From: an uncultured delta proteobacterium
Lineage (GTDB): Bacteria > Desulfobacterota > Desulfobulbia > Desulfobulbales > Desulfocapsaceae
Length of the DNA stretch: 64,000 nucleotides
Assembly: GCA_963776075.1 (NCBI GenBank)
Contig: CAVZLG010000010.1
Location: forward strand, 104,500 to 168,499
Direction: 5' to 3'
Every line of letters begins with the position of its first letter. Positions within the stretch are counted from its first letter, which is position 1. The notes beneath the pieces are model-generated. The model did no database searches and was not told the DNA's origin. It worked only from the letters and a program-made list of their open reading frames with translations. The position numbers were made by a program, and so were the translations under genes. Shown here piece by piece: positions 7,438-63,478 of the stretch.

Positions 7438-8763
7438 ATGACAGCAAGGCCAACATACGAAGTGCTTGAAAAAGAGGTCCAGATTCTCAAAAAAAAACTG
7501 GCTGCTCACAAAAACCGTGGCGGTTCTGGCCAGTTACGTCAGCCGTATCTGGAAGCTATCCTCGATAAGACGAACATGCCTGTGTTTCTCAAGAACAGGG
7601 ACTATAAATACGTCTTTATAAACCACCAGTTTGAATGTCTTGCCGATGTAACCCTTGACCAGTTAGCGGGCAAGGACGATTTTGCCATATTTTCTGAACC
7701 AGTTGCTCAGCTTTTTCGTTCGCAGGATGAAGCGGTTGTCAAGCGACGAGATCTGGTCGAATTCGAGGAGACCATTTCCCTGCCAGACGGAGAGCACTCA
7801 TTTATAACAGCCAAATTCCCATTGTTTGACGGTGAGGGTAATGTGGAGGCTATCGGTGGTATTTGTACTGATATCACCGCTCGCAAACAGGCAGAAGCCA
7901 ATCTGCAGGAGGCTGAAGCAAAATACCGAGGTATCTTTGAGCATTCACCTTTGGGAATTTTACAGATTGATAAAAACGGCATCATTACAGCAAGCAATGA
8001 AAAATTAGCAGAAATTCTCGGTTCCAGCGTTGACAAACTTGTTGGTTTTGATCTCCTGCAGTCGGTAACTGATGAGAACATAAGAGCAGCCACCACCTCT
8101 GTACTTTCCGGGCAGATAGTTCATTACGAAGGGCCTTATCGTTCTCTTACAGGGACCAAAAAGGTATACCTTCGCGGTGTTTTTTCTCCAATTTTTTCAG
8201 GTGACGGATCAATAGTTGCCGCTATTGGCATCATTGAAGATATAACAGGAAGAAAGGATACAGAAGAAGCACTGCGGCGAGCTCATAACGAGCTCGAACA
8301 GCGGGTTACAGATCGTACTGCCCAACTGGACCGGAAAACAGAACGACTCAAGGAGACAAATATCGCTCTTAAAATTCTATTGGAAAAGCGGGAAGAAGAC
8401 AAAAAGGAACTTGAAGAGAAGGTATTATTTAATGTTGAAAAACTCATTTCCCCCTACCTGGAAAAACTGAACATGAAACAGAGCGAAGCTGCAAAAGAAA
8501 CGCTTCTGAAAATCATTCAATCAAACCTTGATGAAATCACCTCTTCTTTCGCAGAAAACCAGAAGAATTATCTCTCGAGTCTCACCCCTACCCAGATTCA
8601 AATTGCCGACCTGATAAAACATGGTCACACCACAAAAGAGATCGCCTCTCTTTTATCCCTCTCGCCATCAACCATTGCCTGCCATCGACAGGAGATTAGA
8701 AAAAGGCTTTCCTTGACGAATAAAAAAACAAATCTGCAAGCGGTTCTCACAGCCAGCTCATAA
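7438..8763 (+). CDS. PAS-PAS-coiled-coil LuxR-family transcriptional regulator
   Basis: Two PAS-like blocks (each ending ...ICTDITARK / IIEDITGRK) and a C-terminal LuxR HTH LTPTQIQIADLIKHGHTTKEIASLLSLSPSTIACHRQEIRKRL. Confidence 0.85.
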   Translation: MTARPTYEVLEKEVQILKKKLAAHKNRGGSGQLRQPYLEAILDKTNMPVFLKNRDYKYVFINHQFECLADVTLDQLAGKDDFAIFSEPVAQLFRSQDEAVVKRRDLVEFEETISLPDGEHSFITAKFPLFDGEGNVEAIGGICTDITARKQAEANLQEAEAKYRGIFEHSPLGILQIDKNGIITASNEKLAEILGSSVDKLVGFDLLQSVTDENIRAATTSVLSGQIVHYEGPYRSLTGTKKVYLRGVFSPIFSGDGSIVAAIGIIEDITGRKDTEEALRRAHNELEQRVTDRTAQLDRKTERLKETNIALKILLEKREEDKKELEEKVLFNVEKLISPYLEKLNMKQSEAAKETLLKIIQSNLDEITSSFAENQKNYLSSLTPTQIQIADLIKHGHTTKEIASLLSLSPSTIACHRQEIRKRLSLTNKKTNLQAVLTASS

Positions 8764-8900
8764 TAACTAGAGTGTCTAGTTATTTTCTAATTGTTTTTTA
8801 CCTATTGTATAGTGCCAGACTGGTGGTAATAATCTAATTAGTACATTCCTTGGATAAGGGCTCAAGAATATCCTGACGATGTTGTTCATGAGGTGATATC

Positions 8901-9065
8901 ATGAATTTTGGTGACGTTGTTGTATCTCTCTGGCTGATTCCCGTAGCATTTCAAATTCTTCTCCCGCTCGTCATTTTCTGCGGATGGATGGTGTTTAAAA
9001 TCCCCTCTTTACTGTTTGGTGCGAAAAGTTCGATACGTAATGTCGAGCCATCATTTGCCCGCTAA
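8901..9065 (+). CDS. small single-TM protein (54 aa), paralogue of 20666..20833
   Basis: Own translation: MNFGDVVVSLWLIPVAFQILLPLVIFCGWMVFKIPSLLFGAKSSIRNVEPSFAR. GAGGTGA lies 4 nt upstream of the ATG. Below the 60-aa cut-off of the ORF track. Confidence 0.45.
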   Translation: MNFGDVVVSLWLIPVAFQILLPLVIFCGWMVFKIPSLLFGAKSSIRNVEPSFAR

Positions 9066-9110
9066 AAAACAGAAATAATACTGCCATATCAACTTTGTCT
9101 TTTAGCGTGC

Positions 9111-9142
9111 GGGGAAGGACTGACTCCCTTCAGTCCTTCCCC
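9111..9142. terminator. 12-bp stem hairpin between convergent genes
   Basis: GGGGAAGGACTG-actccctt-CAGTCCTTCCCC. No clear U-tract on either strand. Confidence 0.4.
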
Positions 9143-9181
9143 TGGCAGTAAGGTGACAGCTCGCGCCGTAACGAGTTCACA

Positions 9182-11467
9182 CTATTTTTCTTCAAGATTC
9201 TGGGCAAGATCATTATCAATAACATACATGCAGATCTCTTTGGCTCCCTGCCGGGAATAGTGATACCTGCTCTGCAGGTTCTCTATCATGAAGATGACAT
9301 CATCTCTGATTTTTGAGTCATATGTTCTGAACTCATCCGTATCGAAATCTCTAATTGCCATACGAAAATTTTCATTCTTCAAAAACGGATCCAGCACCTT
9401 CTCTTTAAGATTATAGACATATTTCTGGAACAGTTTCTGAAACAGCGTTGTCTCAACAACGGATAAGCCCTCATGCATTATTTCCTGCGTGAGTGTCGTC
9501 GTTGTATAGGTCTTCTGTACATCGCTCCTGAACAATTCAGCATCTTTCGGGTCGGCCAGGAGCCTTGATTCGATCCTGGCAAACAACTCTTCCGTAATCT
9601 TCAGCTTCTCTCCAGTAAATACACATTTTTCAGTAGTTCCCGGATCAAAATTTACGGCAAACATATAATTTTGGATATCAATGGCAATCTGGTCTTCGTT
9701 ATAGTAGTAGAGCGATTCCTTTACCTCCTGGAGCACTATATAGTTGTACATTTGCAGCAGGGAATCAAGAAAATGCGGTGGAATGACGTCTTTCTCCTGT
9801 TTACAATATTTTCTGAAATATTTTCCGAGCATGGACATATCAATCAGCTTTTTATCACTGGAATATGAAGACAAAAAGTCATTGAAGAGCCGAATAGAGT
9901 CACGACCTGAAAACCCGTGCCAACCATCTTTCTCAGACTCCTTAATAATATGCCGCCGCCGCTTGGCGGTAAATTTTTTCAAATCGCCTTCAGACAGCCA
10001 CCTGGGAATATTACCGGTATATATTTCCATCTTGAGAAGGTGCAGGTTCTTATCACAATATATTTCATATTGTTCTGGGTTGGTTATCCAGTCCAGCATG
10101 GCTTCTGATCCGATCATCAGCCTGGTAGAAATGATAACTCGTGCAAAATTATGGAGAACACGAGGCAGAAAACTCTCCTCTATCTGCTTTCCGAAAATCT
10201 CTCGATAGATCTCAACTTCAGTTTTGATATCAAGTACGTAAGGTATATGTATGTACTCAATTCTATCTGAAAATGCCTGAAGATCCTTCAGCTGTTCCTT
10301 ATCTTCCGGGTTCATCAGGGCAAAGAAGAGAGAATTTACACTTTCCTCAAGTTCCTCGACCTTATGCACTCCCTCACTGATGATGTTGTGCAGTTCCATC
10401 AGCCTTTCAATATTATGGGACTTTATATCCATCAAGGCATAGATACCGTTGTTTGTTCTGGCATAATGCGAGAAGAGATACCGTACCGGCCTTGAATCCG
10501 GAAATAACTGATCGAGATTTCGCTGTATGACCTCATGCTTTAATACCGTCCTTTTTACCGGTTTATCACCTGGGTTAAAGACCGATATACCTTCCCCGAG
10601 TCGTCTCTTGAAGGTGTAGGGGCGAGCATAGACACATTCCATTACCAAATTGATATCATTGTACTTTTCCATCAAGGCGCTGAAGATTGAGCTGCAGATC
10701 GTGCACGGTTTGTCGTGAAATACCCATTCATATTTTTTATCTGTAAAAAATTCCCATTTGAATTTTTCGTCCTCGAAAAGATCATCAAAAAACAACCGCC
10801 TTGAATCACGAGGGATAATAAGAATTGGATTGTCATGACTGGGACAGGGAACATCAAAGTAGGAACCCACATCCTGCTGTTCTTCAGTTTCGGATTGCAG
10901 TTTTTGGCTCGTCCCATCTTTGGTATCTTTGTCAAGCAGCAGACTGATCCTGTCGGCGAGCGTATCAATTTTATGACTATGCGTAGCGGATGGATCTGCC
11001 GGTAACCGCCACACCACCTCGTACCTGAGCCCCTCAGGTGAAACGGTATATTCTTCAAATTTTCGCAGAAGATTATTGAGAAAGGTTGACTTGCCGCTGC
11101 CAGGTGGCCCATCAAAGATATAAACCTTGTTCTGTTGAGCTCCCACCGATAAAGAGTCAACGTGGCGCACCAAGCGGTTGGCAAAAAGTCGATCGGGAAA
11201 AAACGGACGATCAGTCCCCTGGGCGAGCAACTCTAAACAGTCATAGGCAACATAATCTATGGACTCCGGATCATCGGGATATTCATCTACCTCCTCACAT
11301 ATATAGTTGTCTATCATATCAGCGTATAGCTGGTATATATTCCGTATAATCCTGGCTGGATGATCTACAACTTGTTCTAAAAATTCGGAATATTTCAGCA
11401 GCGGCTGCTTTTCCCATTCTTTGTTCTGGTGCTTCAGGTTGTCAAGTGCCCGTGTGATATCACGCAT
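9182..11467 (-). CDS. second, divergent PrkA-family P-loop protein (761 aa)
   Basis: Walker A FDGPPGSGKSTFLNNLL and PrkA-like blocks (CPSHDNPILIIPRD..., GFSGRDSIRLFNDF). The ORF-track start 11680 overlaps spoVR by 180 nt; ATG 11467 (MRDITRAL...) leaves a 31-nt gap. Confidence 0.7.
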   Translation of the reverse strand: MRDITRALDNLKHQNKEWEKQPLLKYSEFLEQVVDHPARIIRNIYQLYADMIDNYICEEVDEYPDDPESIDYVAYDCLELLAQGTDRPFFPDRLFANRLVRHVDSLSVGAQQNKVYIFDGPPGSGKSTFLNNLLRKFEEYTVSPEGLRYEVVWRLPADPSATHSHKIDTLADRISLLLDKDTKDGTSQKLQSETEEQQDVGSYFDVPCPSHDNPILIIPRDSRRLFFDDLFEDEKFKWEFFTDKKYEWVFHDKPCTICSSIFSALMEKYNDINLVMECVYARPYTFKRRLGEGISVFNPGDKPVKRTVLKHEVIQRNLDQLFPDSRPVRYLFSHYARTNNGIYALMDIKSHNIERLMELHNIISEGVHKVEELEESVNSLFFALMNPEDKEQLKDLQAFSDRIEYIHIPYVLDIKTEVEIYREIFGKQIEESFLPRVLHNFARVIISTRLMIGSEAMLDWITNPEQYEIYCDKNLHLLKMEIYTGNIPRWLSEGDLKKFTAKRRRHIIKESEKDGWHGFSGRDSIRLFNDFLSSYSSDKKLIDMSMLGKYFRKYCKQEKDVIPPHFLDSLLQMYNYIVLQEVKESLYYYNEDQIAIDIQNYMFAVNFDPGTTEKCVFTGEKLKITEELFARIESRLLADPKDAELFRSDVQKTYTTTTLTQEIMHEGLSVVETTLFQKLFQKYVYNLKEKVLDPFLKNENFRMAIRDFDTDEFRTYDSKIRDDVIFMIENLQSRYHYSRQGAKEICMYVIDNDLAQNLEEK

Positions 11468-52657: not shown

Positions 52658-53063
52658 GTATTCATCTGTTTTAAAACGGTGCTTTTTTAGGAAAGTTTCC
52701 TTCAAGGGATGCCAATCAGGGATAGTCAACATCTCTAAACATACCAATTATTTACCTAAGAGTAACCTGTACTTCATCGACACAGAAGTGATCTCATAGA
52801 CTGCCATATTCAAGGGTCGATCATGACCGACAGGTTTTTAAGAAACAAAATTTACACTTCACCTTGACACCCATAGATCAGTCCATTATTTTGATAATCC
52901 GTATGATACAATTATGAGTGAGGTCAATTGACCCTATGCTCTTTGTTGTATTGTTCAATGATCTCTCATTCACTATACTGAATCTCATTGAAAAATTACC
53001 CTGAACACCATTTTTTTTATCGGACTGATTGTTATACCTTTCAATTCGGATGTCCGCCTCCCG

Positions 53064-53567
53064 ATGTGCATGGTTAAATTAAGGAACATACTCAGATATT
53101 GCTGGCTTGATGGAAGGGTTTTCTTGTTGTTCCTGATCGTCCTGTGCTCCTTAACAGCTTCCTTCGAAACTGCTCATGCAAAAGAACATTCTATTCACAT
53201 CCAATTCCAATATAATATCAATGCAATACCAGAAAAACAGGTAGAGGGTTATAACCTTTATAAAGCTGGTGATTTAATCTGCAACACCAGCCTTTCAGAA
53301 ACAGAGACTCAAGATTTTGAATGTAGCTTCGAAAGCCCTGGTGGATCTTTTCCCTTTACCTTAACTGCCTTATTCAATGATGGCACCGAAAGCCCTCACT
53401 CCGCCCCGTTCTCACTCCTTCTGGTAGATGAATCAACAGCAGTACTGGGTTTACAGGTTCTCAGTGGCCAAACACCGGAAGGCACGGATGGAATAGGGTC
53501 GCAAACTGGAACCGATCAGATAGACATGGCTGATGTCATCAATATGTTACAAGAGTTGCCCAGATAA
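53064..53567 (+). CDS. secreted hypothetical protein with C-terminal dockerin/EF-hand-like motif
   Basis: Signal/anchor VFLLFLIVLCSLTASFETAHA, a beta-rich middle, and C-terminal AVLGLQVLSGQTPEG...DQIDMADVINMLQEL. Confidence 0.5.
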   Translation: MCMVKLRNILRYCWLDGRVFLLFLIVLCSLTASFETAHAKEHSIHIQFQYNINAIPEKQVEGYNLYKAGDLICNTSLSETETQDFECSFESPGGSFPFTLTALFNDGTESPHSAPFSLLLVDESTAVLGLQVLSGQTPEGTDGIGSQTGTDQIDMADVINMLQELPR

Positions 53568-53726
53568 ATTTTCAGGAAATGTGTGCTATTGTATTGTAGT
53601 TTTATCGTCTTTGATCCCAGTAAAACTACCTAAATGCAGTTTTGACTCCTTCTTGATAAAGAGCAGTTGATGAGAAATACATTTCAAGACGCTGCTGTTC
53701 AGAAGATAAATAAAAGGTTTTTAAAA

Positions 53727-54671
53727 TCATCTGATTATCAATTTCTGGCCGGGAAAAATCTTGTTGGCAGCACTCAGATTATTTTTTTCTCTTAAGGCCT
53801 CAATGCTGGTACCGGTTACAAGACTTATTCGATATAAATTTTCCCCCTTTTTAACCACATAATAAACCGGCTCTGCCACTGCTACTTTAGAATCCTGAGC
53901 AGTATCATTGTAATCAATTGAAATCGCCTTCGTCTTGTCACGTATTTCTTCTTCCAGGGTTTCCATAGACGTTGAGATAGACGAAAGTCTCGCCTGGAAA
54001 ATCAGCATCTGCTGATTAACAGACTGAATTTGACCCTCTATATTTGTTAATGTATCTTTGGAATCCTGAAGTAATGTTAACTGCAATTGTTGCTCATCCA
54101 TTCGTTCATATAGAGATGCTATCTCCGATGCTTTTTCTGTTTCATTGTCACCACGAGCAAACAGATAGAAGAACAGGAGAAGAACACAAAAGGACGATCC
54201 TGTGTATAGTGCAATTTTTTTAAGATTATTATATTGAGGTCTTCCCTGATCAATCTTTTGAGCTAACGACTCAGGTGCAATGTTATCCTCATACCATTCC
54301 GGGGCGAGATTACCTGAAAAGTACTTTAGATCTTCATTTGAAATATTCGTGAATTGAATCGCTACTGAATAAGCGTATTTTTTTTCAACAAGGTTTTTCA
54401 AAGGTGTGACATTAATTACCTCACCTTCCGCAGTAAGTACACTGCTGCAGTCATTTATTTCAATACCAAGACGAATAGTGTCGTGTACGTCAAGATGCTC
54501 AGGCAGGTGAAGCAACACCCCTCCCTGACTAATGTTTTTTACTATTCCCTGCTGCGTTTGATCATTGTTGATTATAGTAACAGGCCACCTGACCGTAGCC
54601 CGGGAAAATCTGCGCCTTTGATGCAGTCGCCTATCACCTGCTGAAGCAAACATATCAAATTCCTTTTCCAA
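53727..54671 (-). CDS. PilZ-TM-coiled-coil-LysM protein
   Basis: PilZ motifs RLHQR and NISQGG, one TM (FCVLLLFFYLF), and C-terminal LysM YYVVKKGENLYRISLVTGTSIEALREKNNL...PGQKLII. Confidence 0.75.
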   Translation of the reverse strand: MEKEFDMFASAGDRRLHQRRRFSRATVRWPVTIINNDQTQQGIVKNISQGGVLLHLPEHLDVHDTIRLGIEINDCSSVLTAEGEVINVTPLKNLVEKKYAYSVAIQFTNISNEDLKYFSGNLAPEWYEDNIAPESLAQKIDQGRPQYNNLKKIALYTGSSFCVLLLFFYLFARGDNETEKASEIASLYERMDEQQLQLTLLQDSKDTLTNIEGQIQSVNQQMLIFQARLSSISTSMETLEEEIRDKTKAISIDYNDTAQDSKVAVAEPVYYVVKKGENLYRISLVTGTSIEALREKNNLSAANKIFPGQKLIIR

Positions 54672-54983
54672 GATGCCCCCTTTACATACAGCTTGTGATA
54701 TTCAGATATTTATATCATTCTTAAAATACTGGATTTTAATATCATAATACAATGACCATTATATTATGCAATACCCTCTATATCGGCTGCATTGTTGATT
54801 CTATTTACCTCCATTTTTCTGCCATTCACTCGTTAGCCGGGGATGAGACGATCCCAATGTGCTGTAATTTGATCTCTTTCATGTTGTTGCCCCTGTTACT
54901 GGTTTCATCGATTACAATATGATAAACTGACACCTGAATTCAAACTTTCCTCACAATTAAACTGTTACCTGCGAGATGGTACG

Positions 54984-55217
54984 ATGAGCATACCAAAAGT
55001 ATACATTATTATCTTAGTGGCGGCACTATTAGCGCTGAGCGTCTCATGCTCTGATAACGAAGATTCGAACGAGAAAAGTGCTATCAGAAAATCAACGGAT
55101 AAAATCGCCCAGGAAGCAACGGAAATGATTAAAAACCCAATTAATGAGGCGAAAGAAGTTGCAGAATTAAGCACCGATCGTGCCCATCAGTTTGAAAAAG
55201 CAACGACGCAGGAATAG
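54984..55217 (+). CDS. small lipoprotein (77 aa)
   Basis: Lipobox LALSVSC after a hydrophobic signal; charged helical remainder. Confidence 0.55.
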   Translation: MSIPKVYIIILVAALLALSVSCSDNEDSNEKSAIRKSTDKIAQEATEMIKNPINEAKEVAELSTDRAHQFEKATTQE

Positions 55218-55226
55218 ACCCCTTAA

Positions 55227-55778
55227 TTATTGCTCCCCGATTATTGAATCGAATACCTGATGCATTTTTTTTGTATTCCAGTTTCGATAACCGGTAGACC
55301 GAAGAACTGCTTTGCCCTGTTTATCAATAAGGAAGGCTGTGGGAAGTCCAAACACTGAAAATTTCTCACTAACCACTCCCTCTCGGTCAATCAGCACGCT
55401 AAACGAATATTTATTACGCAGCATAAAGGACGCTGCTTGCTCTTTAGACTCCCTGGTATTAATCATTAAAATTTTCAAACCGTTATCATGATATTTCTTT
55501 TCTAACTGCTCCAGGAAAGGCATCTCCTTCCTACACGAGCTTCACCAGGTTGTCCAAAACCCGATAAAGACGGCTGAACCACGATAATCGCTGAGACGTA
55601 CTGTATTTCCATCCAGGTCCAGGAGAGAGAAATCAGAAACGAGTTTACGATTTTCCCGTGGCCGCAACTCTACCGCTGATTCAGTGTACGTTGCCAAGAA
55701 CGGCTGAATATAGCTTTGCCAGGAGTAACTGAGGGCCCCCATTACTATTATCAATATGAATATCGTTCTTTTTTTCAA
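55227..55778 (-). CDS. TlpA/ResA-like thiol:disulfide oxidoreductase, predicted selenoprotein (U-x-x-C redox motif)
   Basis: The ORF track splits it at TGA 55542-55544. Read-through gives ...AVFIGFWTTW-U-SSCRKEMPFLEQLEKKY... in one frame. Signal anchor (M)KKRTIFILIIVMGALS from TTG 55778, with GGAG upstream (alternative start 55826). Confidence 0.7.
55513..55532 (-). promoter_or_regulatory. candidate bacterial SECIS hairpin
   Basis: AGGAAGG-AGAUG-CCUUUCCU (one bulged U), starting 9 nt after the UGA. Confidence 0.4.
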
Positions 55779-55822
55779 AAAGCGTTCTCCTGTTGATTGA
55801 GCCTTCAGTGACGTATTCGGCC

Positions 55823-56203
55823 TCAATTGTTGAAAATATAACCTGATACGCGTAATGCCTTCTGGGCAGGTTGTAGTTTTTCTGTCTGTACCAAAATGTA
55901 ATCTGTATCATACGTTGATATTGCAAAAATGCTTACTTCTGCTTCGGCCAGGATTGATGAAATATCTGCCAGAACACCTGTCAAAGAAAAATCCAAGACA
56001 CCTGCTATTTTAATACAAGACCAGCCTGATTCTGATTTCTCTGAATTCATTTGGGTAGAAGAATCACAGACTATTGATAACTCGTCCTCTGTTCTGCTGA
56101 TGGAATAGAATTTACTCCCATAGACCTGATTCGGAATGCCATGATCTGGTGGAAATCTATGAATGGTAAATCGGTTTTCGAGAATGCTTAGTTGTAATTT
56201 CAT
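55823..56203 (-). CDS. ACT-domain protein
   Basis: 126 aa; ...WSCIKIAGVLDFSLTGVLADISSILAEAEVSIFAISTYDTDYILV is the ACT_7-type pattern. Confidence 0.65.
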   Translation of the reverse strand: MKLQLSILENRFTIHRFPPDHGIPNQVYGSKFYSISRTEDELSIVCDSSTQMNSEKSESGWSCIKIAGVLDFSLTGVLADISSILAEAEVSIFAISTYDTDYILVQTEKLQPAQKALRVSGYIFNN

Positions 56204-56375
56204 CTGTAACCTTTAATTGGGCTGTTAACTAAAACCGAAGATCTGCAAAAAGCCCCCCCAGAGCGATTATCCAGGAACCAGACGCTCCCCATGAACAATT
56301 ATCAAAAAAATATTGCACGGAGACACCCCGGAGAGAGAACACAATACTGATAACTGGTGCAAGCAGCCGAGTTCC

Positions 56376-57359
56376 TTACTGCTCTTTAAATGAAAGCTCT
56401 TTTCTATTGATCAGGCCGTAACTACCGCCTTGCCCCTGCTTTCTGTCACCATCATCGCAGACAAAGAGGAGATAGGGTAATCCTTCATATTGAACAATTG
56501 CAATGCCTTCAATATTTTTAAGGCCTTTCATTTTGGCCCACTCGACCCTGGCAGGCTTATTGTTCATTTTACTATCCCAAACCCATATCCGAGAGCGGAG
56601 TTTACCTTTCTTATTCTGAGATTCCCCTGCAAAGTAGTACTGATCATGTATCTTTTCATAAGCAATTGCTCGAATACCGCCACCTTCCAGATCCAGTGAA
56701 ATTATTTTGGGGTCGAATTTCGGTTTCTGTTTTTTACTGAAAAGATCATAAGGATTTAACAGGGACAGCATCAGTGCTCTATCTTGGTAAAGGGGCGTTC
56801 GTAAACCAATGAGCAATGTTTCTTTTACGTGGTTATAAGCGATCCCCTCTATATTGATTTCATCAATCTCATCTTTGCTAAGATTCAGGGACTCCTGAAG
56901 TTGTTTCTGGATGTATGGGAGAAGATCGTCAACCACTTGTAAATGAGATATATGCTGCCCTCGTATCTCGACTTTTAAAAGTTGTTCGCGTGATTTTGAT
57001 CGCTTGTCTTTCTTTGTTGCCGAATGTGAAGTTATAAGGAAAACATCCCCCTTGCCACCCTCCGTGATACCCTCAAGGTCTTTAGCTTTGATCTTATCAC
57101 CGGTAATTGCCTTTGGTGATAAAAGTAGTTCACCTTTTTCAGATGTTATGGAAAAAAGCTGAAGAGGATGATCGCCCTCATCTTCAACGATGAGCACGCT
57201 GCCATCAATAATTTGAATGGCATCAGAGGGTTCATAAATATTTGAAAATGAGAGATTAGATTGCGACCAGGCCGGTGTCGCACACTGGAGAATAAAGCCC
57301 GAGAATGCAACGACAAGAAACACACTGAGAAGACTGATCTGAATTATAGACTGGTTCAT
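56376..57359 (-). CDS. secreted hypothetical protein (possibly DUF3616/phytase-like beta-propeller)
   Basis: Signal peptide ...ATPAWSQ and recurrent D(L/I)EGI motifs. Family assignment is tentative. Confidence 0.45.
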   Translation of the reverse strand: MNQSIIQISLLSVFLVVAFSGFILQCATPAWSQSNLSFSNIYEPSDAIQIIDGSVLIVEDEGDHPLQLFSITSEKGELLLSPKAITGDKIKAKDLEGITEGGKGDVFLITSHSATKKDKRSKSREQLLKVEIRGQHISHLQVVDDLLPYIQKQLQESLNLSKDEIDEINIEGIAYNHVKETLLIGLRTPLYQDRALMLSLLNPYDLFSKKQKPKFDPKIISLDLEGGGIRAIAYEKIHDQYYFAGESQNKKGKLRSRIWVWDSKMNNKPARVEWAKMKGLKNIEGIAIVQYEGLPYLLFVCDDGDRKQGQGGSYGLINRKELSFKEQ

Positions 57360-57386
57360 AAGATTCGAGTGATTGAGTTAATAGAT

Positions 57387-57412
57387 TGAGCCGCTTGCAA
57401 AACGCCCTTTTC
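57387..57412. repeat. left copy of a perfect 26-bp inverted repeat
   Basis: TGAGCCGCTTGCAAAACGCCCTTTTC is the exact reverse complement of 61469..61494. Confidence 0.9.
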
Positions 57413-57611
57413 ACTATCAGTACTGGTGAGATTTTCAAATCTTCACCAGTACTCAGAAAAAATCACACATTTTTTTTCTAGATAAGTTTGTCAGTCAGCG
57501 CACATGAGTGCTAAACTAAAAAAATGAAAGTGATTTTTCGGCGGTTATGAAAGAGAAATTACCAAAAAAATGGATAAATGAGAAGTGTCATAAATAGATT
57601 AGGGGGGAGGA

Positions 57612-57953
57612 ATGGACTACATAGAATTTATTACAAAATATAACTCAAATGAAATATCTGTTGATATTGACAAAAAAAAGGCAGGTTTGATGTACAAGCA
57701 GCCAGACCTTATGCCGGAAGATCTAAAAGCAAAACAATCCATGATTAGAAACGTTGGATTTGGTGGCTTAGTTATTGGTGCTGCACTATTTTTCTTTTCC
57801 CCCTGGTGGCTAGCTACCGGCGTATTAGCCCTATCTTTATTAGCATTTCCCCAAGCACAAAAAACTGCTGCTCAAGGTATCTTGAGAGCCTCACTCACAA
57901 ACCCGGATATATATGAAACAGCATTACAAAACCAAGTTATAAGAATAAAATAA
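57612..57953 (+). CDS. hypothetical 2-TM protein
   Basis: 113 aa. GGGGGAGG RBS. TM pair GFGGLVIGAALFFFSPWWLATGVLALSLLAF. Confidence 0.45.
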   Translation: MDYIEFITKYNSNEISVDIDKKKAGLMYKQPDLMPEDLKAKQSMIRNVGFGGLVIGAALFFFSPWWLATGVLALSLLAFPQAQKTAAQGILRASLTNPDIYETALQNQVIRIK

Positions 57954-58189
57954 AACAGATGGCAACAAGCTTCGCGCTGATTGTCGGTCAAATCTTGGCA
58001 ATCAGCTCGCTTCACGCAACAATCCATAGAAACCCAAGCTCAATGGCTGAGTTCAGAAGCTCGACAGTTAAGAAAAATAACGAAGCAATAACCATCTCCT
58101 GGGCACCGCCACCTGCATAAAACCATACCATACACCCAAATTATCGTAACTCTAAGCTCCGATATCACAAGCGAGTATGTCTATATCGT

Positions 58190-60130
58190 CTAATGTGTTG
58201 ATTTACTCCATAATCTATCAGCCAGTTCGAGTTGATGGGTGGCATTAATGAATTTTAGCAATGTTGCAGACCTTTGATGGTTATCACCATTATTTCCCAA
58301 TCTTTGGATTTTCTGGTCATTAATTATAAAAAGTTCCTTCTGATCGCCAATAAAGCCGACACCAACATCATGATACTCCTTGGCGTTCTGCTCATACATC
58401 GATGTACCGAGGAACGAATTTCTAACGTTGCCAAAGTCCAGATAATGAGCCAGAGAGGGCGCGAAATCAAGGCTTGTAGAATTATGAACATTATACTTTT
58501 TGGGCAAGATCCGGGTAGGATCAAAGAGAATGTAAGGGATTTTATCGAAAAAGAATCCCTGATAATTCGGGTCATCAAAAGCCTTTACAAACGGTTTTTC
58601 CGGATAGTGACAGTGGTCAGCGGTAAAGATAACGATGCTGTTTTTTGAATATGGGGATTTTTTAAAATAGGCCCAAAAATGACCAAACGCCCTATCGAAC
58701 GAATGAATATTATTTAATACATAGTTCTCCCCATTCCCATACTTCACCACATCTTCTTCTTGTTTTAGAAATGCATGAGTACCGAAATTATAAATCCCGA
58801 GAAAAAAGGGCCTGTTCTTCTCTTTTTTTTCGAAACGTTCTTCAAGAAAGCCAACGAAACCATTAAAAAATTGTTTATCCGAAAATGCGTCTTTACCCCC
58901 CGCAGGTTCGGCACCGCCCAGATATCTCTCAGATAATTCATCACCTGTTAAAACGGTCATAAAGCCGAGTTTACTTATCATTTCATCTACCCGAGAGACA
59001 TGCCTTTTATGATGTGAATCGAGAAATATTGTTTCGTAGTTCCTTTCTTTAAATAATTCAGCGATACTGAGATACTTGTTTTTTTTGAGATCCTCATACT
59101 CTGTTTGCCAGCCATTGCCTCCATTGATGGGGAATAGTGAGCAGAGCTGACCGAGAAGTCCACGATATGTTGCGGCTGTATGATTATAATAATTATGGAC
59201 GACCATCGATGACTGTGCAAAATCGTCTATATTCGGCGTAATGTCAGGAAATTTAGCCCCATATACCCCAAGTGACCGGGCTGATATTCCTTCTGAAAAA
59301 ACAACAATGATATTTGGCTTATCGGACATATGGTGTTTCACAGGGAACGGAGATTGACCATTGTAAATGGTTTCTTTGATAAGTGGAAATCTACTCGTTG
59401 AATCATAGTGAAATCCGAATTTCTTGATTTCCTTCAGCTCTCCTTCAGTGAAAGTCACACTTATTTTTTTTGAAAGACCATATCTATCAACAATTACGTT
59501 ATAAAACGAAGAAACTGGACCATTGTCTTTAAATAAATCATATTCAAAATATTTGTTATTATACTTAAATGATTTATTATAAAACCAGTTATTATTATTG
59601 AATATAGCCATCAAAATTACTAAAAAAGACAATATAAAAATATATTTATAGCTAATATTAGATTCAATATTTTTTTCTGTTTTTTCAACATAAAATATAA
59701 ATAATGAATATATAATCGTTATAAATATAATGGAAAATATAACATATCTATTAATAAATATATATATATGGTCACTATTTTCTATTGCTAATCTTGAAAT
59801 ATAAATTCCACTTTCTTGTATAGATAGAAGTTGTAATAAATATAAAATAATAAAAAATGAAGAAAATATATAAGAAATTATTCTTAATATAAAATATTTA
59901 TAAAAAAATAATTCAATTATTATCAATAAAACTAATAATTCTGCTAAAAATAAATCAAATATATTAAAATATAAAAATATTCTATTAGTTAAATTACCTG
60001 AGGCACCTATGTTTAAGTGAAAATAAAAACCGAATATAACCAACCCGGTAAATAAGGTCATAAATGAAAAGAATATGATTCTTGTCACGTTAGCTCCATT
60101 CAGAAATCTAAAAAAAATAATATTCCTCAT
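58190..60130 (-). CDS. LTA-synthase/phosphoglycerol-transferase family sulfatase-domain membrane protein
   Basis: Five or more TM in an extremely AT-rich N-terminus, then a sulfatase domain (KPNIIVVFSEGISARSLGVYG...FTADHCH). Confidence 0.75.
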   Translation of the reverse strand: MRNIIFFRFLNGANVTRIIFFSFMTLFTGLVIFGFYFHLNIGASGNLTNRIFLYFNIFDLFLAELLVLLIIIELFFYKYFILRIISYIFSSFFIILYLLQLLSIQESGIYISRLAIENSDHIYIFINRYVIFSIIFITIIYSLFIFYVEKTEKNIESNISYKYIFILSFLVILMAIFNNNNWFYNKSFKYNNKYFEYDLFKDNGPVSSFYNVIVDRYGLSKKISVTFTEGELKEIKKFGFHYDSTSRFPLIKETIYNGQSPFPVKHHMSDKPNIIVVFSEGISARSLGVYGAKFPDITPNIDDFAQSSMVVHNYYNHTAATYRGLLGQLCSLFPINGGNGWQTEYEDLKKNKYLSIAELFKERNYETIFLDSHHKRHVSRVDEMISKLGFMTVLTGDELSERYLGGAEPAGGKDAFSDKQFFNGFVGFLEERFEKKEKNRPFFLGIYNFGTHAFLKQEEDVVKYGNGENYVLNNIHSFDRAFGHFWAYFKKSPYSKNSIVIFTADHCHYPEKPFVKAFDDPNYQGFFFDKIPYILFDPTRILPKKYNVHNSTSLDFAPSLAHYLDFGNVRNSFLGTSMYEQNAKEYHDVGVGFIGDQKELFIINDQKIQRLGNNGDNHQRSATLLKFINATHQLELADRLWSKSTH

Positions 60131-60714
60131 ATTTTTAAATCTATTACTTTTATAGTCTGCAATATAACGTGGTATCTCGGCATAGTAATACTATCCTTAC
60201 AACTCCAAGGCCAATTGTGAAATGGTCATTGTCGGTACCATCGCATGCACTTTAATGCAGATGCCGGATATATTGGCACCAGCTTAATGCTCGATTTCAT
60301 CAACGAGCAAGACTCTTTATGAACCCATTCTTCTACACTATGTATCCTTATCAATATAATTGTTTAATATCAATTTCCACGAAGCCGGAATCGCCCCTCA
60401 GGTTAATAATTCTATTATCACCCACCAACTCGAGATTAAATCAAGAATCTACTGCGCATAATTTCTTATCAACTAATCTTTATGAAATATTGAATTAAGT
60501 TAACTGCAAGAGAATAAACAAAGGTAACCTTTCAATGTTACTGAAAAATGCTTACAGATATGATGAAGGTCGCGGTGGTGAAAAACTATCTGACTGGAAA
60601 AACACCACTTAAAAGCATTATTGGTAAATTGTAATGAGATAGAAAGAAGACTGATTACCTACGAAATGTCCTTTTTTGAGTAATCTAGAAAATAGAAAAG
60701 GAGACGCCTCAGCT

Positions 60715-60999
60715 ATGAATAAATCAGACCTCGTAGAACTATTGTCACAAGAATTGGATCTCTCTGTCAAAGAAACTTCCAGTACCATAAATATCATTCT
60801 GGATTCTATGACAGAAGCACTCTCAAAGGGTGAAAATATCGAAATAAGGGGATTTGGTAGTTTTACTGTTAAAAATTATGACTCCTATATTGGCAGAAAT
60901 CCAAAAACTGGAGAAAAAATCACCGTTAAGGCCAAGAAAGCACCGGTCTTCAAAGTTGGAAAGGAGCTAAGGCGTGCTGTTGATGGTGGTGGAAAATAA
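60715..60999 (+). CDS. ihfB: IHF-beta/HU family DNA-bending protein
   Basis: MNKSDLVELLS...GENIEIRGFGSFTVK...GRNPKTGEKITVKAKKAPVFKVGKELR. AAAGGAG RBS. Confidence 0.8.
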   Translation: MNKSDLVELLSQELDLSVKETSSTINIILDSMTEALSKGENIEIRGFGSFTVKNYDSYIGRNPKTGEKITVKAKKAPVFKVGKELRRAVDGGGK

Positions 61000-61448
61000 A
61001 TGCCCCCCCGCACGGCACTGTTAGTTGGTGCAACAGGGCTGATTAGAGGTTACTGCCTACAAACGCTTTGTGATGCCTCTTACTATTCAGAAGTCACCAC
61101 TCTCGTTAGAAAACCACTCCTCAAAACTCATCGTAAGCTGAAGAAAGTCATAACCACGTTTGATAATCTTGAACACGAAACTATCATCCATACAGGCTCA
61201 CGATGTTTATTGCTGCTTAGGAACGACAATCAAGAATGCAGGATCTCAAGAAGCATTCAAAAAAATCGATTCCTCTCTTGTTGTTACGATAGCGAAGTTG
61301 ATGGGCTCTTCCGGAAAACGAGTACCTCAATGCTGTAATCATCATTCAGTTGAGCCTTTTGCAAAATGATGATTTTCGTTCAACGTCAAGGCATGTGAAA
61401 AATTTTTACCGCAGGCATATAATTGATATTCCGAGGATAAAAATTTAA
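61000..61448 (+). pseudogene. decayed NAD(P)H-binding (atypical SDR, HTATIP2/YbjT-like) gene with at least two frameshifts
   Basis: Frame 1: MPPRTALLVGATGLIRGYCLQTL.... Frame 2: AHDVYCCLGTTIKNAGSQEAFKKID.... Frame 3: ...VKNFYRRHIIDIP. No frame is intact. Confidence 0.6.
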
Positions 61449-61468
61449 GTATAACGTAGAGGTTGAGC

Positions 61469-61494
61469 GAAAAGGGCGTTTTGCAAGCGGCTCA
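61469..61494. repeat. right copy of the perfect 26-bp inverted repeat
   Basis: GAAAAGGGCGTTTTGCAAGCGGCTCA. Confidence 0.9.
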
Positions 61495-61568
61495 GTTATC
61501 TATAAAAATGATTCTTGACAGGCTCTCGCAGCATTTCCTTTTTCCAGCATCATCAGCGGCTGAGATTC

Positions 61569-63242
61569 TCAATGGCCGGCCATCATTGCTTCGACGTCTT
61601 CTTCCGGAGTTGTAATGGGTTTAATGTCAAATTTTTCGATTAAAAGATTTGCCACGTTGGGAGACAGAAAACCTGGAAGTGTTGGTCCGAGACGTATCCC
61701 CTTTACCCCCAGAGAAAGCAATGCCAGGAGCACAAGAACGGCCTTCTGCTCGTACCAGGCGATATCAAAGGAAAGGGGGAGTTCGTTAAGGTCGGAGAGG
61801 CCGAAAGCTTTTTGTAATTCGAGAGCGATAACTGCCAAGGAGTAGGAATCGTTGCACTGACCAGCATCTAGTACTCTGGGGATACCGCCAATATCGCCAA
61901 GATCAAGTTTGAGATATTTGTATTTCGCACAACCCGCGGTCAGGATCACCGCATCTTTGGGCAACTGTTGTGCCACCTGCGTGTAATACTCCCGCGTCTT
62001 ATGACGTCCATCACAGCCTGCCATAACCACAAAGCGTTTTATCGCTCCGGATTTCACCGCCTCAATAATTTTGTCTTTGAGCGCCAGCACCTGATTGTGA
62101 CCAAAACCTCCGACAATCGTTCCAGATTCGAGTTTTTCAGGAGGTTTGCATATCAATGCTTTCTCGATTATTTGTGAAAAATCCTTCATCTCACCAGCCT
62201 GACGATCCGGGATGTGGGTGCACCCTTCAAATCCAACAGCTCCGGTGGTGAAAATCCGGTCCATGTGTTCTGGTTTGGGGGGGACAATGCAGTTTGACGT
62301 AAAAAGAACCGGACCATTAAACGAGTCAAGCTCTTTCTTCTGCATCCACCAGGCATTACCGTAGTTGCCAACCAGGTGGCTGTATTGTTTTAACTTGGGG
62401 TAGTAGTGGGCAGGTAGCATTTCACTATGCGTGTAGACATCGATACCTTTGTTCGTGGTTTGTTTCAGCAATTCATCGAGGTCAACCAGGTCGTGACCAG
62501 TAATGAGAATTCCTGGATTAGTCCCAACGCCAAGGTTGACGGTGGTCATTTCACACGTTCCGTAGCCTTCATTATTAGCTCGGTCAAGCAGAGCCATGGT
62601 CTCTACACCCATCTTACCAGTCTTCAATACCAAGGCCAAAAGGTCGTCATTGTTCAAGGCTGGATCAACCAGGTCGGCAAGTCCTTCCATAAGAAATTCA
62701 AAGATTTCACGACTATGCTTTTTCAGTTGGTAGGCATGTTCGGCATAAGCACAAAGTCCTTTCAATCCATACAGAATGGTAGCCTTCAGGGAACGCTCAT
62801 CTTCATCGATAATTTCCAGCCATCCTCCGGTACCACTTGATGCCTTGGAGAGAATTTCTGTCTCCTCTTCAAAAGACCATGTTGCGCATTCTGGAACAGT
62901 ACCGGCAAAATCATTACCGTGGGTGTTCTTATAGGCTTCCAACACCCTGTTTCTCAAACGATCTCGAAGAGCAATACTCTGTTTGATGAAACTGAGAAAG
63001 TCGCTTTTGCTGAAGTTTGCATTGGTGATAGTGGCAAACATTCCTTTGTCGATAAAAAAGGCAATCTCTTCATCGTAGATATCAAATGCCTTACCTTTGA
63101 CACCCCAGACAGATATGCCTTTGAGCGTCCAGATGAACAGATCCTGAAGATTAGCTACTTCTTCCTTCTTGCCACAGACTCCCTGGATGGTGCATCCAGT
63201 ATTCTTTGCAGTTTCCTGACACTGGTGACAAAACATAGACAT
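61569..63242 (-). CDS. hcp: hybrid-cluster protein (hydroxylamine reductase)
   Basis: N-terminal [23 protein letters not shown] cysteine motif; 557 aa. Confidence 0.95.
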
Positions 63243-63307: not shown

Positions 63308-63478
63308 TTAATTGCTGCTTGGTCTCGTTCCTGCGTACTTCTTCATCAGTGTGCTAAGTCCCGATACAGGCGTATTTTTCTGTTGCTTTTCAAGCTTGTC
63401 TCGTGTTTTCCGGTGAAGCTTATCGTCGCTCTGTTTCTGTTTCTTTTCCCTGTTTTTCTTCCCACCTTTGTCTCCCAT
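63308..63478 (-). CDS. possible small, highly basic protein (56 aa) upstream of hcp
   Basis: Own translation: MGDKGGKKNREKKQKQSDDKLHRKTRDKLEKQQKNTPVSGLSTLMKKYAGTRPSSN. GAGGAG lies 7 nt upstream of the ATG. Confidence 0.3.
   Translation of the reverse strand: MGDKGGKKNREKKQKQSDDKLHRKTRDKLEKQQKNTPVSGLSTLMKKYAGTRPSSN

What the first reader, a model, noticed from the sequence alone, without database searches (positions are those of the whole stretch)
57387..61494. Perfect 26-bp inverted repeats bracket a 4.1-kb low-GC island
TGAGCCGCTTGCAAAACGCCCTTTTC (57387-57412) reappears as its exact reverse complement at 61469-61494. Flanking similarity is limited to an ATAGAT just outside each copy.
The enclosed segment is clearly more AT-rich than its surroundings. 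It holds a 2-TM hypothetical protein, an LTA-synthase-like gene, an IHF-beta-like gene and a multiply frameshifted NAD-binding pseudogene that decays right up to the right repeat. No transposase or recombinase lies inside.
Possibilities:
- termini of a degenerate or non-autonomous mobile element;
- two copies of a dispersed REP/MITE-like element;
- recombination sites of an invertible segment (an IHF-like gene is on board);
- a shared operator, since the left copy ends 27 nt upstream of the start of gene 56376..57359.
Basis: seen in the sequence. Interest (0 to 1): 0.6.

Follow-up and report, generated by a model that had tools for sequence, protein, structure and literature searches.

The report
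Two independent MITE insertions, one truncated
The "perfect 26-bp inverted repeat" is the tip of a 142-bp miniature transposable element (MITE) with about 44 loci in this Desulfocapsaceae genome; two copies landed independently on either side of a low-GC gene patch and one was later cut down by a small deletion, so the pair is ordinary and not a functional unit.

Summary
In detail: 57387-57412 and 61469-61494 are exact reverse complements, and the enclosed DNA is exceptionally AT-rich (35.1% GC against a 46% genome, lowest 0.01% of same-size windows).

The 26-mer is not specific to this locus. It is the terminus of a 141-142 bp near-palindromic MITE ("MITE-A", GAGCC...GGCTC) with 4-bp target-site duplications, 34 complete copies and 44 loci in this genome, and it is widespread in Desulfocapsaceae.
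- The right repeat is the outer end of a complete MITE-A (61352-61493) with its own duplication AGTT/AGTT, nested in the stump of a second MITE family.
- The left repeat is a remnant. A 96.5-98.5% identical sister-strain contig carries a complete MITE-A there with its own duplication GATT/GATT. The window lineage lost 326 bp between two CTTTTC(N)CT microhomologies.

These are two independent insertions, not a composite transposon, an invertible segment or an operator pair. With 44 loci, about 1.6 pairs this close are expected by chance. MITE-A prefers AT-rich targets, which explains its presence at a low-GC patch. No parent transposase was found. Earlier notes of this scan flagged what looks like the same repeat family in other genomes. 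Interest is low for the finding as posed; the MITE family appears undescribed in the sources searched.

The parts
57384..57387 (.). GATT, the surviving left copy of the 4-bp target-site duplication of the left MITE-A
   Evidence: Sister-strain contig L138 has GATT|GAGCC...GGCTC|GATT around a complete element at the same site.
57388..57412 (+). Remnant (first 25 nt) of a MITE-A copy.
   Evidence: It matches MITE-A positions 1-25 and diverges from the MITE afterwards. L138 carries the complete 142-bp element here.
57407..57415 (+). Deletion junction, CTTTTC(A)CT microhomology. 326 bp were lost relative to L138 (117 nt of the MITE, its inner GATT and about 200 bp of flank).
   Evidence: L138 has CTTTTCGCT inside the MITE (7470-7478) and CTTTTCACT at 7796-7804. 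The window has a single copy reading CTTTTCACT, which explains the 28/29 extension of the repeat.
57612..57953 (+).
   Evidence: ORF; no Pfam hit. It is 99% identical in L138 and has 51-55% homologs on four other metagenome contigs, so it is a real gene.
58190..60130 (-). 646-aa LtaS-like membrane sulfatase-family gene. The 5' third (59400-60130) has only 20% GC.
   Evidence: Pfam Sulfatase PF00884, E 7e-30, residues 272-564. Translation shows a long hydrophobic N-terminal part, and GC was measured. A 55% identical homolog over 641 aa lies in G001 in another context.
60676..60999 (+). HU/IHF-fold DNA-binding protein gene
   Evidence: Pfam Bac_DNA_binding, E 8e-31. An 89% aa identical ortholog lies in G002:C126.
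61000..61303 (+). 5' stump of an NAD(P)H-binding (NmrA/epimerase-like) gene, frameshifted and truncated
   Evidence: The intact 217-aa ortholog follows the HU gene in G002 (L022:764-1417; Pfam NAD_binding_10 and Epimerase). tblastn shows a frame break. Nucleotide homology to G002 ends at 61303.
61304..61351 (+). First ~49 nt of a second MITE family (MITE-B; 138 bp in G002, terminal repeat GGCTCTTCCGGAAAAC, 8-bp duplication AAACAAAA there)
   Evidence: 96% match to positions 1-49 of the complete G002 copy. Multiple copies occur in G001, G002 and G004, and there are two partial copies on C12 of this genome.
61348..61351 (.). AGTT, left copy of the target-site duplication of the right MITE-A
   Evidence: Read directly from the sequence; listed in the duplication table (C10 165851-165992, AGTT).
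61352..61493 (-). Complete 142-bp MITE-A copy.
   Evidence: It aligns end to end with 33 other complete copies and folds as a long imperfect hairpin, -22.3 kcal/mol, z -4.1.
61494..61497 (.). AGTT, right copy of the target-site duplication of the right MITE-A
61569..63242 (-). Hybrid-cluster protein gene (hcp), normal GC; right-hand neighbour of the low-GC patch
   Evidence: Pfam Prismane, E 1e-165. 87-90% aa identical orthologs occur in four congeners, but with none of the window's 40-64 kb genes next to them.
52660..61500 (.). The full low-GC (38%), poorly syntenic accessory tract of which the repeat-bounded 4.1 kb is the most AT-rich part
   Evidence: GC profile. The conserved block 48.3-52.65 kb ends at the GC drop, and later genes are scattered over other contigs in congeners. 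No tRNA is found in the window.

Best explanation
The two 26-bp arms are the termini of two separately inserted copies of a 141-142 bp non-autonomous transposable element (MITE-A: GAGCC...GGCTC, about 26-bp imperfect terminal inverted repeats, near-palindromic throughout, 4-bp target-site duplication).

Shown:
- The right arm belongs to a complete copy at 61352-61493 flanked by AGTT/AGTT. It inserted into an older, now truncated MITE-B that abuts a truncated NAD(P)H-binding gene.
- The left arm is what remains of a complete copy that inserted at GATT, 28 nt upstream of the start codon of gene 56376-57359. A close sister strain still has the whole element.
- In the window's lineage a 326-bp deletion between two CTTTTC(N)CT microhomologies removed all but the first 25 nt.
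- The arms are identical because MITE-A copies in this genome are 95-99% alike.
- MITE-A lands preferentially in locally AT-rich DNA.

Inferred:
- The near-identity of copies reflects a recent burst of transposition.
- The AT-rich target preference is why copies sit at this low-GC, gene-decaying accessory patch.
- Mobilisation is in trans, by a DDE transposase that has not been identified.
- The pair has no joint function.
For: - Copy number: 26 matches to the 26-mer at up to 3 mismatches, 9 of them exact; 44 MITE-A loci in total.
- Element definition: 34 complete copies of 141-142 bp (one of 118 bp with an internal deletion). 30 of 34 have flanking direct repeats of at least 4 bp, 23 of them exactly 4 (chance 1/256 per site).
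- Independent insertion on the right: AGTT|MITE|AGTT.
- Independent insertion on the left: L138 has GATT|complete MITE|GATT at the same site. It is colinear with the window on both sides (L138 3790-7475 = window 53729-57412; 7796-9609 = window 57407-59221). The deletion endpoints lie at CTTTTC repeats.
- Both alleles occur in nature. An X1 contig bridges 57259-58460 as in the window. An X2 contig leaves the window sequence at 57407 and runs on for 231 nt, as the undeleted allele would.
- Chance: 1.6 neighbour pairs within 4.2 kb expected, P(at least 1) = 0.81, 2 observed.
- Target preference: plus/minus 50-bp flanks of insertion sites average 35.9% GC against 45.9% at random sites; 94% lie below the random median; duplications are 29% GC.
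- Family breadth: present in all 8 congeners searched, most genomes of the family and some other families of the order. 65 of 81 pattern hits fetched from the species-level collection are complete 140-143 bp elements, in Desulfocapsa, Desulfofustis, Desulforhopalus and Desulfopila.
- Another example of two MITEs bracketing a gene, each with its own duplication (CAGT; ATTT): L058.
Against: - No cognate autonomous IS with matching termini was found. Searched: own genome with PF01609 and PF13359, 31 genomes with PF13586, and 80 loci from other genomes. Transposition is therefore inferred from the duplications alone.
- No empty-site allele of either insertion was recovered.
- L138 stops at window 61216, so the right junction could not be compared between strains.
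- The read evidence is from assembled contigs only, which cannot exclude rare rearranged forms.
Confidence: 0.9

Rival explanations
1. MITE-flanked composite unit. In the ancestor, two complete inverted MITE-A copies bracketed the 4.1-kb low-GC segment, and a trans-acting transposase moved the whole unit into this site, as described for MITE-flanked integron units.
For: The ancestral state did have two complete inverted copies about 4.3 kb apart. The interior is compositionally foreign. Two other inverted pairs exist, C15:93701-98040 and L058.
Against: Each copy has its own matching duplication, which a composite insertion would not produce. The outer flanks differ (GATT against AGTT). The interior is single-copy in the genome. 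It is also a mosaic: the HU+NAD pair is 86% identical to G002:C126 only over 60525-61303, and the sulfatase homolog lies elsewhere in G001. The low-GC tract extends 4.7 kb beyond the left copy.
Confidence: 0.03
2. Invertible (phase-variable) segment. The inverted repeats are crossover sites, with the on-board HU/IHF-like protein as an accessory factor.
For: Perfect inverted repeats and an HU/IHF-fold gene inside.
Against: - No invertase or tyrosine recombinase lies in or beside the segment.
- The repeat occurs at 44 loci.
- The duplications of both MITEs are unswapped, so there has been no net inversion since insertion.
- L138 is colinear and in the same orientation.
- No strand-change joints appear in contigs of four metagenomes from four studies.
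- The left arm is a 25-nt deletion scar.
Confidence: 0.01
3. Regulatory motif. The 26-mer is a shared operator or promoter element controlling gene 56376-57359 and a gene at the right end.
For: The left copy lies 27 nt upstream of the ATG of 56376-57359, in both strains. The terminus contains TTGCAA, which resembles a -35 hexamer (read from the sequence).
Against: The consensus scan finds no promoter using it. The right copy lies downstream of the convergent hcp stop codon and next to a dead gene. Copies are scattered at unrelated loci. Incidental effects of the MITE on the neighbouring gene's expression are possible but were not tested, because no RNA data could be laid.
Confidence: 0.03
4. 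Recombination scars. The MITEs mark breakpoints where homologous or illegitimate recombination between repeat copies assembled the mosaic patch. This is compatible with the best explanation for MITE-A and concerns mainly MITE-B.
For: Homology to G002 ends exactly at the outer end of the MITE-B stump (61303/61304). The NAD(P)H gene's 3' two-thirds and most of MITE-B are missing. The genus is highly rearranged. Sister-strain differences are all deletions of about 0.3-1 kb, two of them shown to lie at microhomologies.
Against: The intact MITE-A duplications show MITE-A itself was not a crossover site. For MITE-B there is only one junction and no reciprocal product was identified.
Confidence: 0.2

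Closest known systems
Bacterial MITEs in general, e.g. Neisseria Correia elements (from my own knowledge: about 100-155 bp, about 26-bp terminal inverted repeats, TA duplication, intergenic, able to affect neighbouring transcripts)
   Same: Size class, terminal inverted repeats of about 26 nt, a fixed short target duplication, dozens of dispersed near-identical copies, no coding capacity, preference for AT-rich and probably intergenic DNA, long hairpin potential.
   Different: No sequence relation was seen. The duplication is 4 bp with no fixed sequence, not TA. The host clade is Desulfocapsaceae. No match to any Rfam family at E up to 1, apart from one chance miRNA hit at 57399-57471 over the left junction.
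ERIC / IRU elements of Enterobacteria (from my own knowledge: about 127-bp imperfect palindromes)
   Same: The whole element is an imperfect palindrome, so forward and reverse copies align with each other. It is dispersed and of similar length.
   Different: Unrelated sequence and host. MITE-A has clear 4-bp duplications.
IS5-family-derived MITEs (from my own recollection of the ISfinder/TnPedia tables: IS5, IS427 and IS1031 subgroups have GA/GAG-type ends and 2-4 bp duplications)
   Same: Ends begin GAGCC and the duplication is 4 bp.
   Different: Membership is not shown. No IS5-type transposase with matching termini was found in this genome or in 30 relatives. This remains only a lead.
MITE-flanked composite units, e.g. 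integron mobilization units and Acinetobacter MITE-bracketed class 1 integrons (from my own knowledge)
   Same: Ancestrally, two inverted MITE copies bracketed a few kb of foreign-looking DNA.
   Different: Those units carry one duplication around the whole unit. Here each MITE has its own, and the outer flanks differ.
REP/BIME elements
   Different: From my own knowledge, REPs are about 20-40 nt, lack target duplications and go with RAYT transposases. MITE-A is 142 bp with terminal inverted repeats and duplications. RAYT was not searched.

Membership tests
MITE (non-autonomous DDE-transposon derivative) | Small (under about 600 bp) with no coding capacity | tested here: met
   141-142 bp in 33 of 34 complete copies; too short for a transposase.
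MITE (non-autonomous DDE-transposon derivative) | Terminal inverted repeats | tested here: met
   GAGCCGCTTGCAAAACG-CCCTTTTCG against GAGCCTTTTGCAAAATGATGATTTTCG (reverse complement of the other end); alignment, hairpin fold.
MITE (non-autonomous DDE-transposon derivative) | Target-site duplication of constant length at each copy | tested here: met
   30 of 34 copies have at least 4 bp of matching flanks, 23 exactly 4 bp. Also seen in L138 (GATT) and L058 (CAGT, ATTT).
MITE (non-autonomous DDE-transposon derivative) | Multicopy and dispersed, with related copies in related genomes | tested here: met
   44 loci on 19 contigs; found in congeners, the family and the order.
MITE (non-autonomous DDE-transposon derivative) | Cognate autonomous IS with the same termini | tested here: inconclusive
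   None found. These are draft MAGs, which often lose IS copies, and only three Pfam transposase families were searched.
MITE (non-autonomous DDE-transposon derivative) | Occupied and empty site polymorphism | not tested
   The only strain comparison available (L138) shows a deletion inside an occupied site, not an empty site.
Composite transposon / MITE-flanked mobile unit | One target duplication flanking the whole unit, with none around the individual ends | tested here: not met
   Outer flanks are GATT (57384-57387) and AGTT (61494-61497). Each MITE has its own pair.
Composite transposon / MITE-flanked mobile unit | The same unit present at other loci or in other genomes | tested here: not met
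   The 3 kb of the interior next to the right MITE (window 58495-61351) has no second copy in the genome apart from one 48-nt match. In relatives the parts lie in separate contexts.
Site-specific invertible segment (Hin/Gin/Fim type) | Dedicated recombinase in or next to the segment | tested here: not met
   Pfam on all ORFs from 53.7 to 63.2 kb gives no recombinase.
Site-specific invertible segment (Hin/Gin/Fim type) | Both orientations present in the population | tested here: inconclusive
   No strand-change joints in contigs of 4 runs and L138 is colinear. Contigs cannot exclude rare forms.
REP/BIME | Short (about 20-40 nt) palindromic unit without target duplication | tested here: not met
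   The unit is 142 bp with terminal inverted repeats and a 4-bp duplication.

The most novel reading that the evidence does not exclude
MITE-A, possibly together with MITE-B, is an active shaper of Desulfocapsaceae accessory regions. On this reading, pairs of copies could mobilise or recombine intervening low-GC DNA, and the window captures a decayed example. In addition, the element immediately upstream of gene 56376-57359 could supply or modulate that gene's promoter, with the natural deleted and undeleted alleles differing in expression.
Probability: 0.05. Interest if true: 0.5.

Novelty: new member of a known kind. Interest (0 to 1): 0.2.

Why it matters
For the question as posed, it removes a false lead. 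The perfect inverted repeat does not delimit a mobile or invertible island.

What remains useful:
1. A well-defined MITE family of the sulfur-cycling Desulfocapsaceae that I could not find described (142 bp, 4-bp duplication, AT-rich targets). It is very abundant in marine-sediment and salt-marsh metagenomes. Because it is a repeat, it is likely to break short-read assemblies and can mislead annotation; here it had been read as part of a pseudogene.
2. A clean natural before-and-after pair of alleles showing how a solo MITE terminus arises by microhomology-mediated deletion.
3. A picture of a low-GC accessory patch being eroded by deletions of about 0.3-1 kb in sister strains.

Tried and rejected
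- **Parent IS:** I looked for inverted terminus pairs 0.2-6 kb apart in the genome. Only the window pair, C15:93705-98039 and one 408-bp pair turned up, none with a transposase. The three PF01609 hits in the genome have no matching termini. PF13359 gave no hit. PF13586 hits in relatives have no matching termini. L058, with two termini 1,368 bp apart, proved to be two MITEs around a 147-aa gene.
- **Rfam:** there is no family for MITE-A, MITE-B or the left junction; the only hit was a chance mir-12 match at E 0.8.
- **Synteny test for relatives lacking the segment:** not informative. No relative keeps both flanks together, and hcp has entirely different neighbours in G001, G002, G004, G005 and G016.
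- **Weak inverted match 61300-61319 / 63405-63424:** I considered it a possible MITE-B right end beyond hcp. No further MITE-B similarity exists there, so it is chance.
- **C4:294756:** this truncated MITE-A is followed by GATT and I considered it a possible reciprocal half of the left copy. I rejected that because both fragments contain element positions 11-25.
- **Campylobacter hits to the degenerate terminus pattern:** one unrelated orthologous locus.
- **Read parts without cover or with small shares:** not used as evidence. The X6 joints 60998>61360 and 61231>61565 have short sides and an unknown middle, so I did not interpret them.
- **Literature:** two searches (MITE terms with Desulfobulb*/Desulfocapsaceae) found nothing relevant.
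- I used the search for related loci on metagenome contigs instead.

Full report
**1. Observation**

The repeat is exactly as reported. TGAGCCGCTTGCAAAACGCCCTTTTC at 57387-57412 has its perfect reverse complement at 61469-61494. No shuffled window contains even one match, and the match extends to 29 nt at 28/29.

The composition claim is also right and is strong. 57413-61351 has 35.1% GC in a 46.0% genome, and only 0.01% of all same-length windows are as low. The low-GC tract starts much earlier, at about 52.65 kb. 52660-61500 (38.0%) is the lowest of all 8.8-kb windows in the genome.

- a 113-aa small protein
- a 646-aa LtaS-like sulfatase-family membrane protein
- an HU/IHF-fold protein
- a broken NAD(P)H-binding gene
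- no transposase or recombinase

**2. The 26-mer is the tip of a MITE**

In the whole assembly (4.75 Mb, 25 contigs; the window is C10:104500-168499) the 26-mer has 26 matches at up to 3 mismatches, 9 of them exact. Almost all copies continue identically inward for about 140 nt.

Aligning the copies defines a 141-142 bp element, GAGCC...GGCTC. Its two ends are imperfect inverted repeats of about 26 nt, and its whole length is a near-palindrome, so forward and reverse copies align with each other. As single-stranded DNA it folds into one long imperfect hairpin of -22.3 kcal/mol (z -4.1).

There are 34 complete copies. 30 of them are flanked by a direct repeat of at least 4 bp, and 23 by exactly 4 bp, so the element makes a 4-bp target-site duplication. 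That is the signature of DDE-type transposition. I call it MITE-A.

Counting fragments, there are 44 loci. Derivatives include:
- several solo or truncated ends (C2:307308, C4:312896, C23:103248 and others)
- 20-bp mini-palindromes made of the two tips joined at their TTGCAA core, still flanked by 4-bp duplications (C7:122437, C15:428503, C23:98371, C2:259244)

**3. Anatomy of the right arm**

The right arm is the outer end of a complete MITE-A at 61352-61493 (reference orientation on the minus strand), flanked by AGTT at 61348-61351 and at 61494-61497.

Directly to its left, 61304-61351 is the first ~49 nt of a second repeat family, MITE-B. A complete 138-bp copy in congener G002 has 16-bp terminal repeats (GGCTCTTCCGGAAAAC / GTTTTCCGGAAGAACC) and an 8-bp duplication (AAACAAAA). 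MITE-A inserted into MITE-B at CAGTT|G. The rest of MITE-B is no longer recognisable.

The NAD(P)H-binding gene is intact (217 aa) right after the HU gene in G002:C126. Nucleotide homology between the two genomes (86%) runs over window 60525-61303 and stops exactly at the MITE-B end. So the "pseudogene decaying right up to the repeat" is a truncated gene stump (61000-61303) followed by 190 nt of nested MITE DNA.

**4. Anatomy of the left arm (the decisive result)**

In the window the left arm is a solo terminus. After GAGCC...CCCTTTTC the sequence leaves the MITE consensus.

A scan of JGI metagenome contigs with the adjacent 113-aa protein returned L138, an 11.5-kb contig from a sister strain that is 96.5-98.5% identical to the window over about 10 kb. 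L138 is colinear with the window on both sides of the junction. At the same site it carries a complete 142-bp MITE-A (98.6% identical to the window's right copy) with its own duplication, GATT|GAGCC...GGCTC|GATT. About 200 bp absent from the window follow, and then ...CTTTTCACTATCAGTACTGG....

The MITE contains CTTTTCGCT at element positions 20-28. The window has a single CTTTTCACT. The window lineage therefore lost 326 bp between these two microhomologous sites, leaving 25 nt of the MITE. This also explains why the inverted repeat "extends" to 28/29 with one mismatch.

Contigs from public metagenomes are consistent with both alleles existing:
- One X1 contig (1,202 nt, 3 differences) bridges 57259-58460 as in the window.
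- One X2 contig follows the window from 58679 down to 57407 and then continues for 231 nt unlike it, as the undeleted allele would.

**5. Consequences for the four proposed readings**

- **Composite or degenerate mobile element: rejected.** Both copies have their own intact duplications (GATT/GATT and AGTT/AGTT), so they inserted separately. The outer flanks do not match. The interior is single-copy and is itself a mosaic. The HU+NAD pair is shared with G002 in another context, the sulfatase homolog (55% aa) sits elsewhere in G001, and nothing else from 40-64 kb accompanies hcp in five relatives.
- **Dispersed MITE: supported.**
- **Invertible segment: rejected.** There is no recombinase. The duplications are unswapped. 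L138 has the same orientation. No strand-change joints appear in contigs of four runs from four studies, with the caveat that contigs cannot show rare forms. Only 25-26 nt of homology remain.
- **Shared operator: rejected as a pair.** The left MITE did land 28 nt upstream of the ATG of gene 56376-57359, in both strains, so an incidental effect on that gene is possible. The consensus scan finds no promoter using the remnant, and I could not test expression.

**6. Is the proximity meaningful?**

With 44 loci placed at random on these contigs, 1.6 neighbour pairs within 4.2 kb are expected (P of at least one = 0.81), and two are observed.

MITE-A strongly prefers locally AT-rich DNA:
- Plus/minus 50-bp flanks average 35.9% GC against 45.9% at random positions.
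- 94% of sites lie below the random median.
- Duplications are 29% GC.

A 38% GC tract is therefore an expected landing zone. L058 from another genome shows the same picture: two MITEs, each with its own duplication, bracketing a small gene.

**7. What the low-GC tract is**

It is a poorly syntenic accessory patch. The conserved block at 48.3-52.65 kb (76-81% identical in G002 and G007) ends exactly where GC drops, and homologs of later genes are scattered over other contigs in congeners. The window contains no tRNA, and no recombinase was seen among the Pfam-scanned ORFs between 51.4 and 63.2 kb.

It is being eroded. Relative to the window, L138 lacks 52706-53728 (1,023 bp, including ORF 53064-53567) and 59222-60212 (991 bp of the sulfatase gene, at a TGTGNAAA microhomology). 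The window in turn lacks the 326 bp at the left MITE.

The G001 sulfatase homolog (36.7% GC in a 43% locus) and the G002 HU/NAD pair (37-40%) are also low in GC. Low GC therefore goes with these genes across the genus and does not by itself mark a very recent import.

**8. Taxon and spread**

A degenerate terminus pattern scanned over one genome per species hit Desulfocapsa, Desulfofustis, Desulforhopalus, Desulfopila aestuarii DSM 18488 and many "uncultured delta proteobacterium" or Desulfocapsaceae MAGs. 65 of the 81 pattern hits fetched are complete 140-143 bp elements. The Campylobacter hits are an unrelated single locus.

MITE-A-like copies occur in all eight congeners, in most genomes of the family and in some other families of the order, with identity falling from 97% to about 75%. 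In sediment and salt-marsh metagenomes the bin holding the MITE reaches summed contig depths in the thousands, against about 5-15 for the flanks.

**9. Mechanism, and what is not shown**

- **Shown:** structure, copy number, duplications, independent insertions, the deletion allele and the target bias.
- **Inferred:** mobilisation in trans by a DDE transposase.

GAG-type ends with a 4-bp duplication recall the IS5 family; this comes from my memory of the ISfinder tables and is a lead only. No element with matching termini and a transposase was found in this genome or in the relatives searched. Draft MAGs often lose IS copies, so this is not evidence that none exists.

**10. Novelty and score**

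MITEs, nested MITEs and solo termini are well known, so the finding as posed is ordinary. The MITE-A family is not in Rfam and I found no paper on it. Earlier first-reader notes of this scan flagged what looks like the same palindromic repeat family in other genomes. I file it as a new member of a known kind, of low interest.

Noticed in passing
window 55227-55826 (-): The apparently split AhpC/TSA-Redoxin gene (two ORFs of 94 and 98 aa) is one reading frame interrupted by a single in-frame TGA. Read as selenocysteine it gives ...FWTTWUSSCRKE..., a UxxC redox motif at the thioredoxin-fold active site. The same split is present in sister strain L138. It is probably a selenoprotein and not a pseudogene. 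The SECIS element was not examined.
   Followed up: partly
window 61304-61351; G000:C12:314427-314500 and C12:997-1063; L026, L027 (G002): A second MITE family (MITE-B): 138 bp in G002, 16-bp terminal repeats GGCTCTTCCGGAAAAC, 8-bp duplication AAACAAAA in the one complete copy inspected. This genome has only three partial copies, while G002, G001 and G004 have several.
   Followed up: partly
G000:C7:122437-122456, C15:428503-428522, C23:98371-98390, C2:259244-259263: 20-bp palindromes (such as GAGCCGCTTGCAAAAGGCTC) consisting of the two MITE-A tips fused at the self-complementary TTGCAA core, still flanked by 4-bp duplications (AACT, AATG, GGTT, TGCT). They look like internal-deletion or hairpin-excision derivatives of MITE-A.
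   Followed up: no
window 59400-60130 (-): The 5' third of the LtaS-like gene, encoding an Ile/Phe/Leu/Asn/Tyr-rich membrane domain, has only 20% GC (a 500-nt window reaches 14.8%) in a 46% genome. In sister strain L138, 991 bp covering this part (59222-60212) are missing. Metagenome contig cover is also patchy here.
   Followed up: partly
window 52706-53728: A 1,023-bp stretch containing the 167-aa ORF 53064-53567 is replaced by about 36 bp in sister strain L138. This is an indel polymorphism at the left edge of the low-GC tract.
   Followed up: no
window 61569-63242 and L017-L021: hcp is 78-90% identical at the protein level in five relatives, yet none of the window's ORFs of 90 aa or more from 40-64 kb lies within about 9 kb of it there. 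Local gene order is very fluid in this genus.
   Followed up: partly
G000:C15:93701-98040: A second inverted pair of MITE-A copies about 4.1 kb apart (one half-element and one complete element). The interior was not examined.
   Followed up: no
window 57416-57455: A strong hairpin (CAGTACTGGTGA...TCACCAGTACTG) lies immediately after the deletion junction. It is unique in the genome and is not called a terminator by the consensus scan. It is partly mutated in L138.
   Followed up: no
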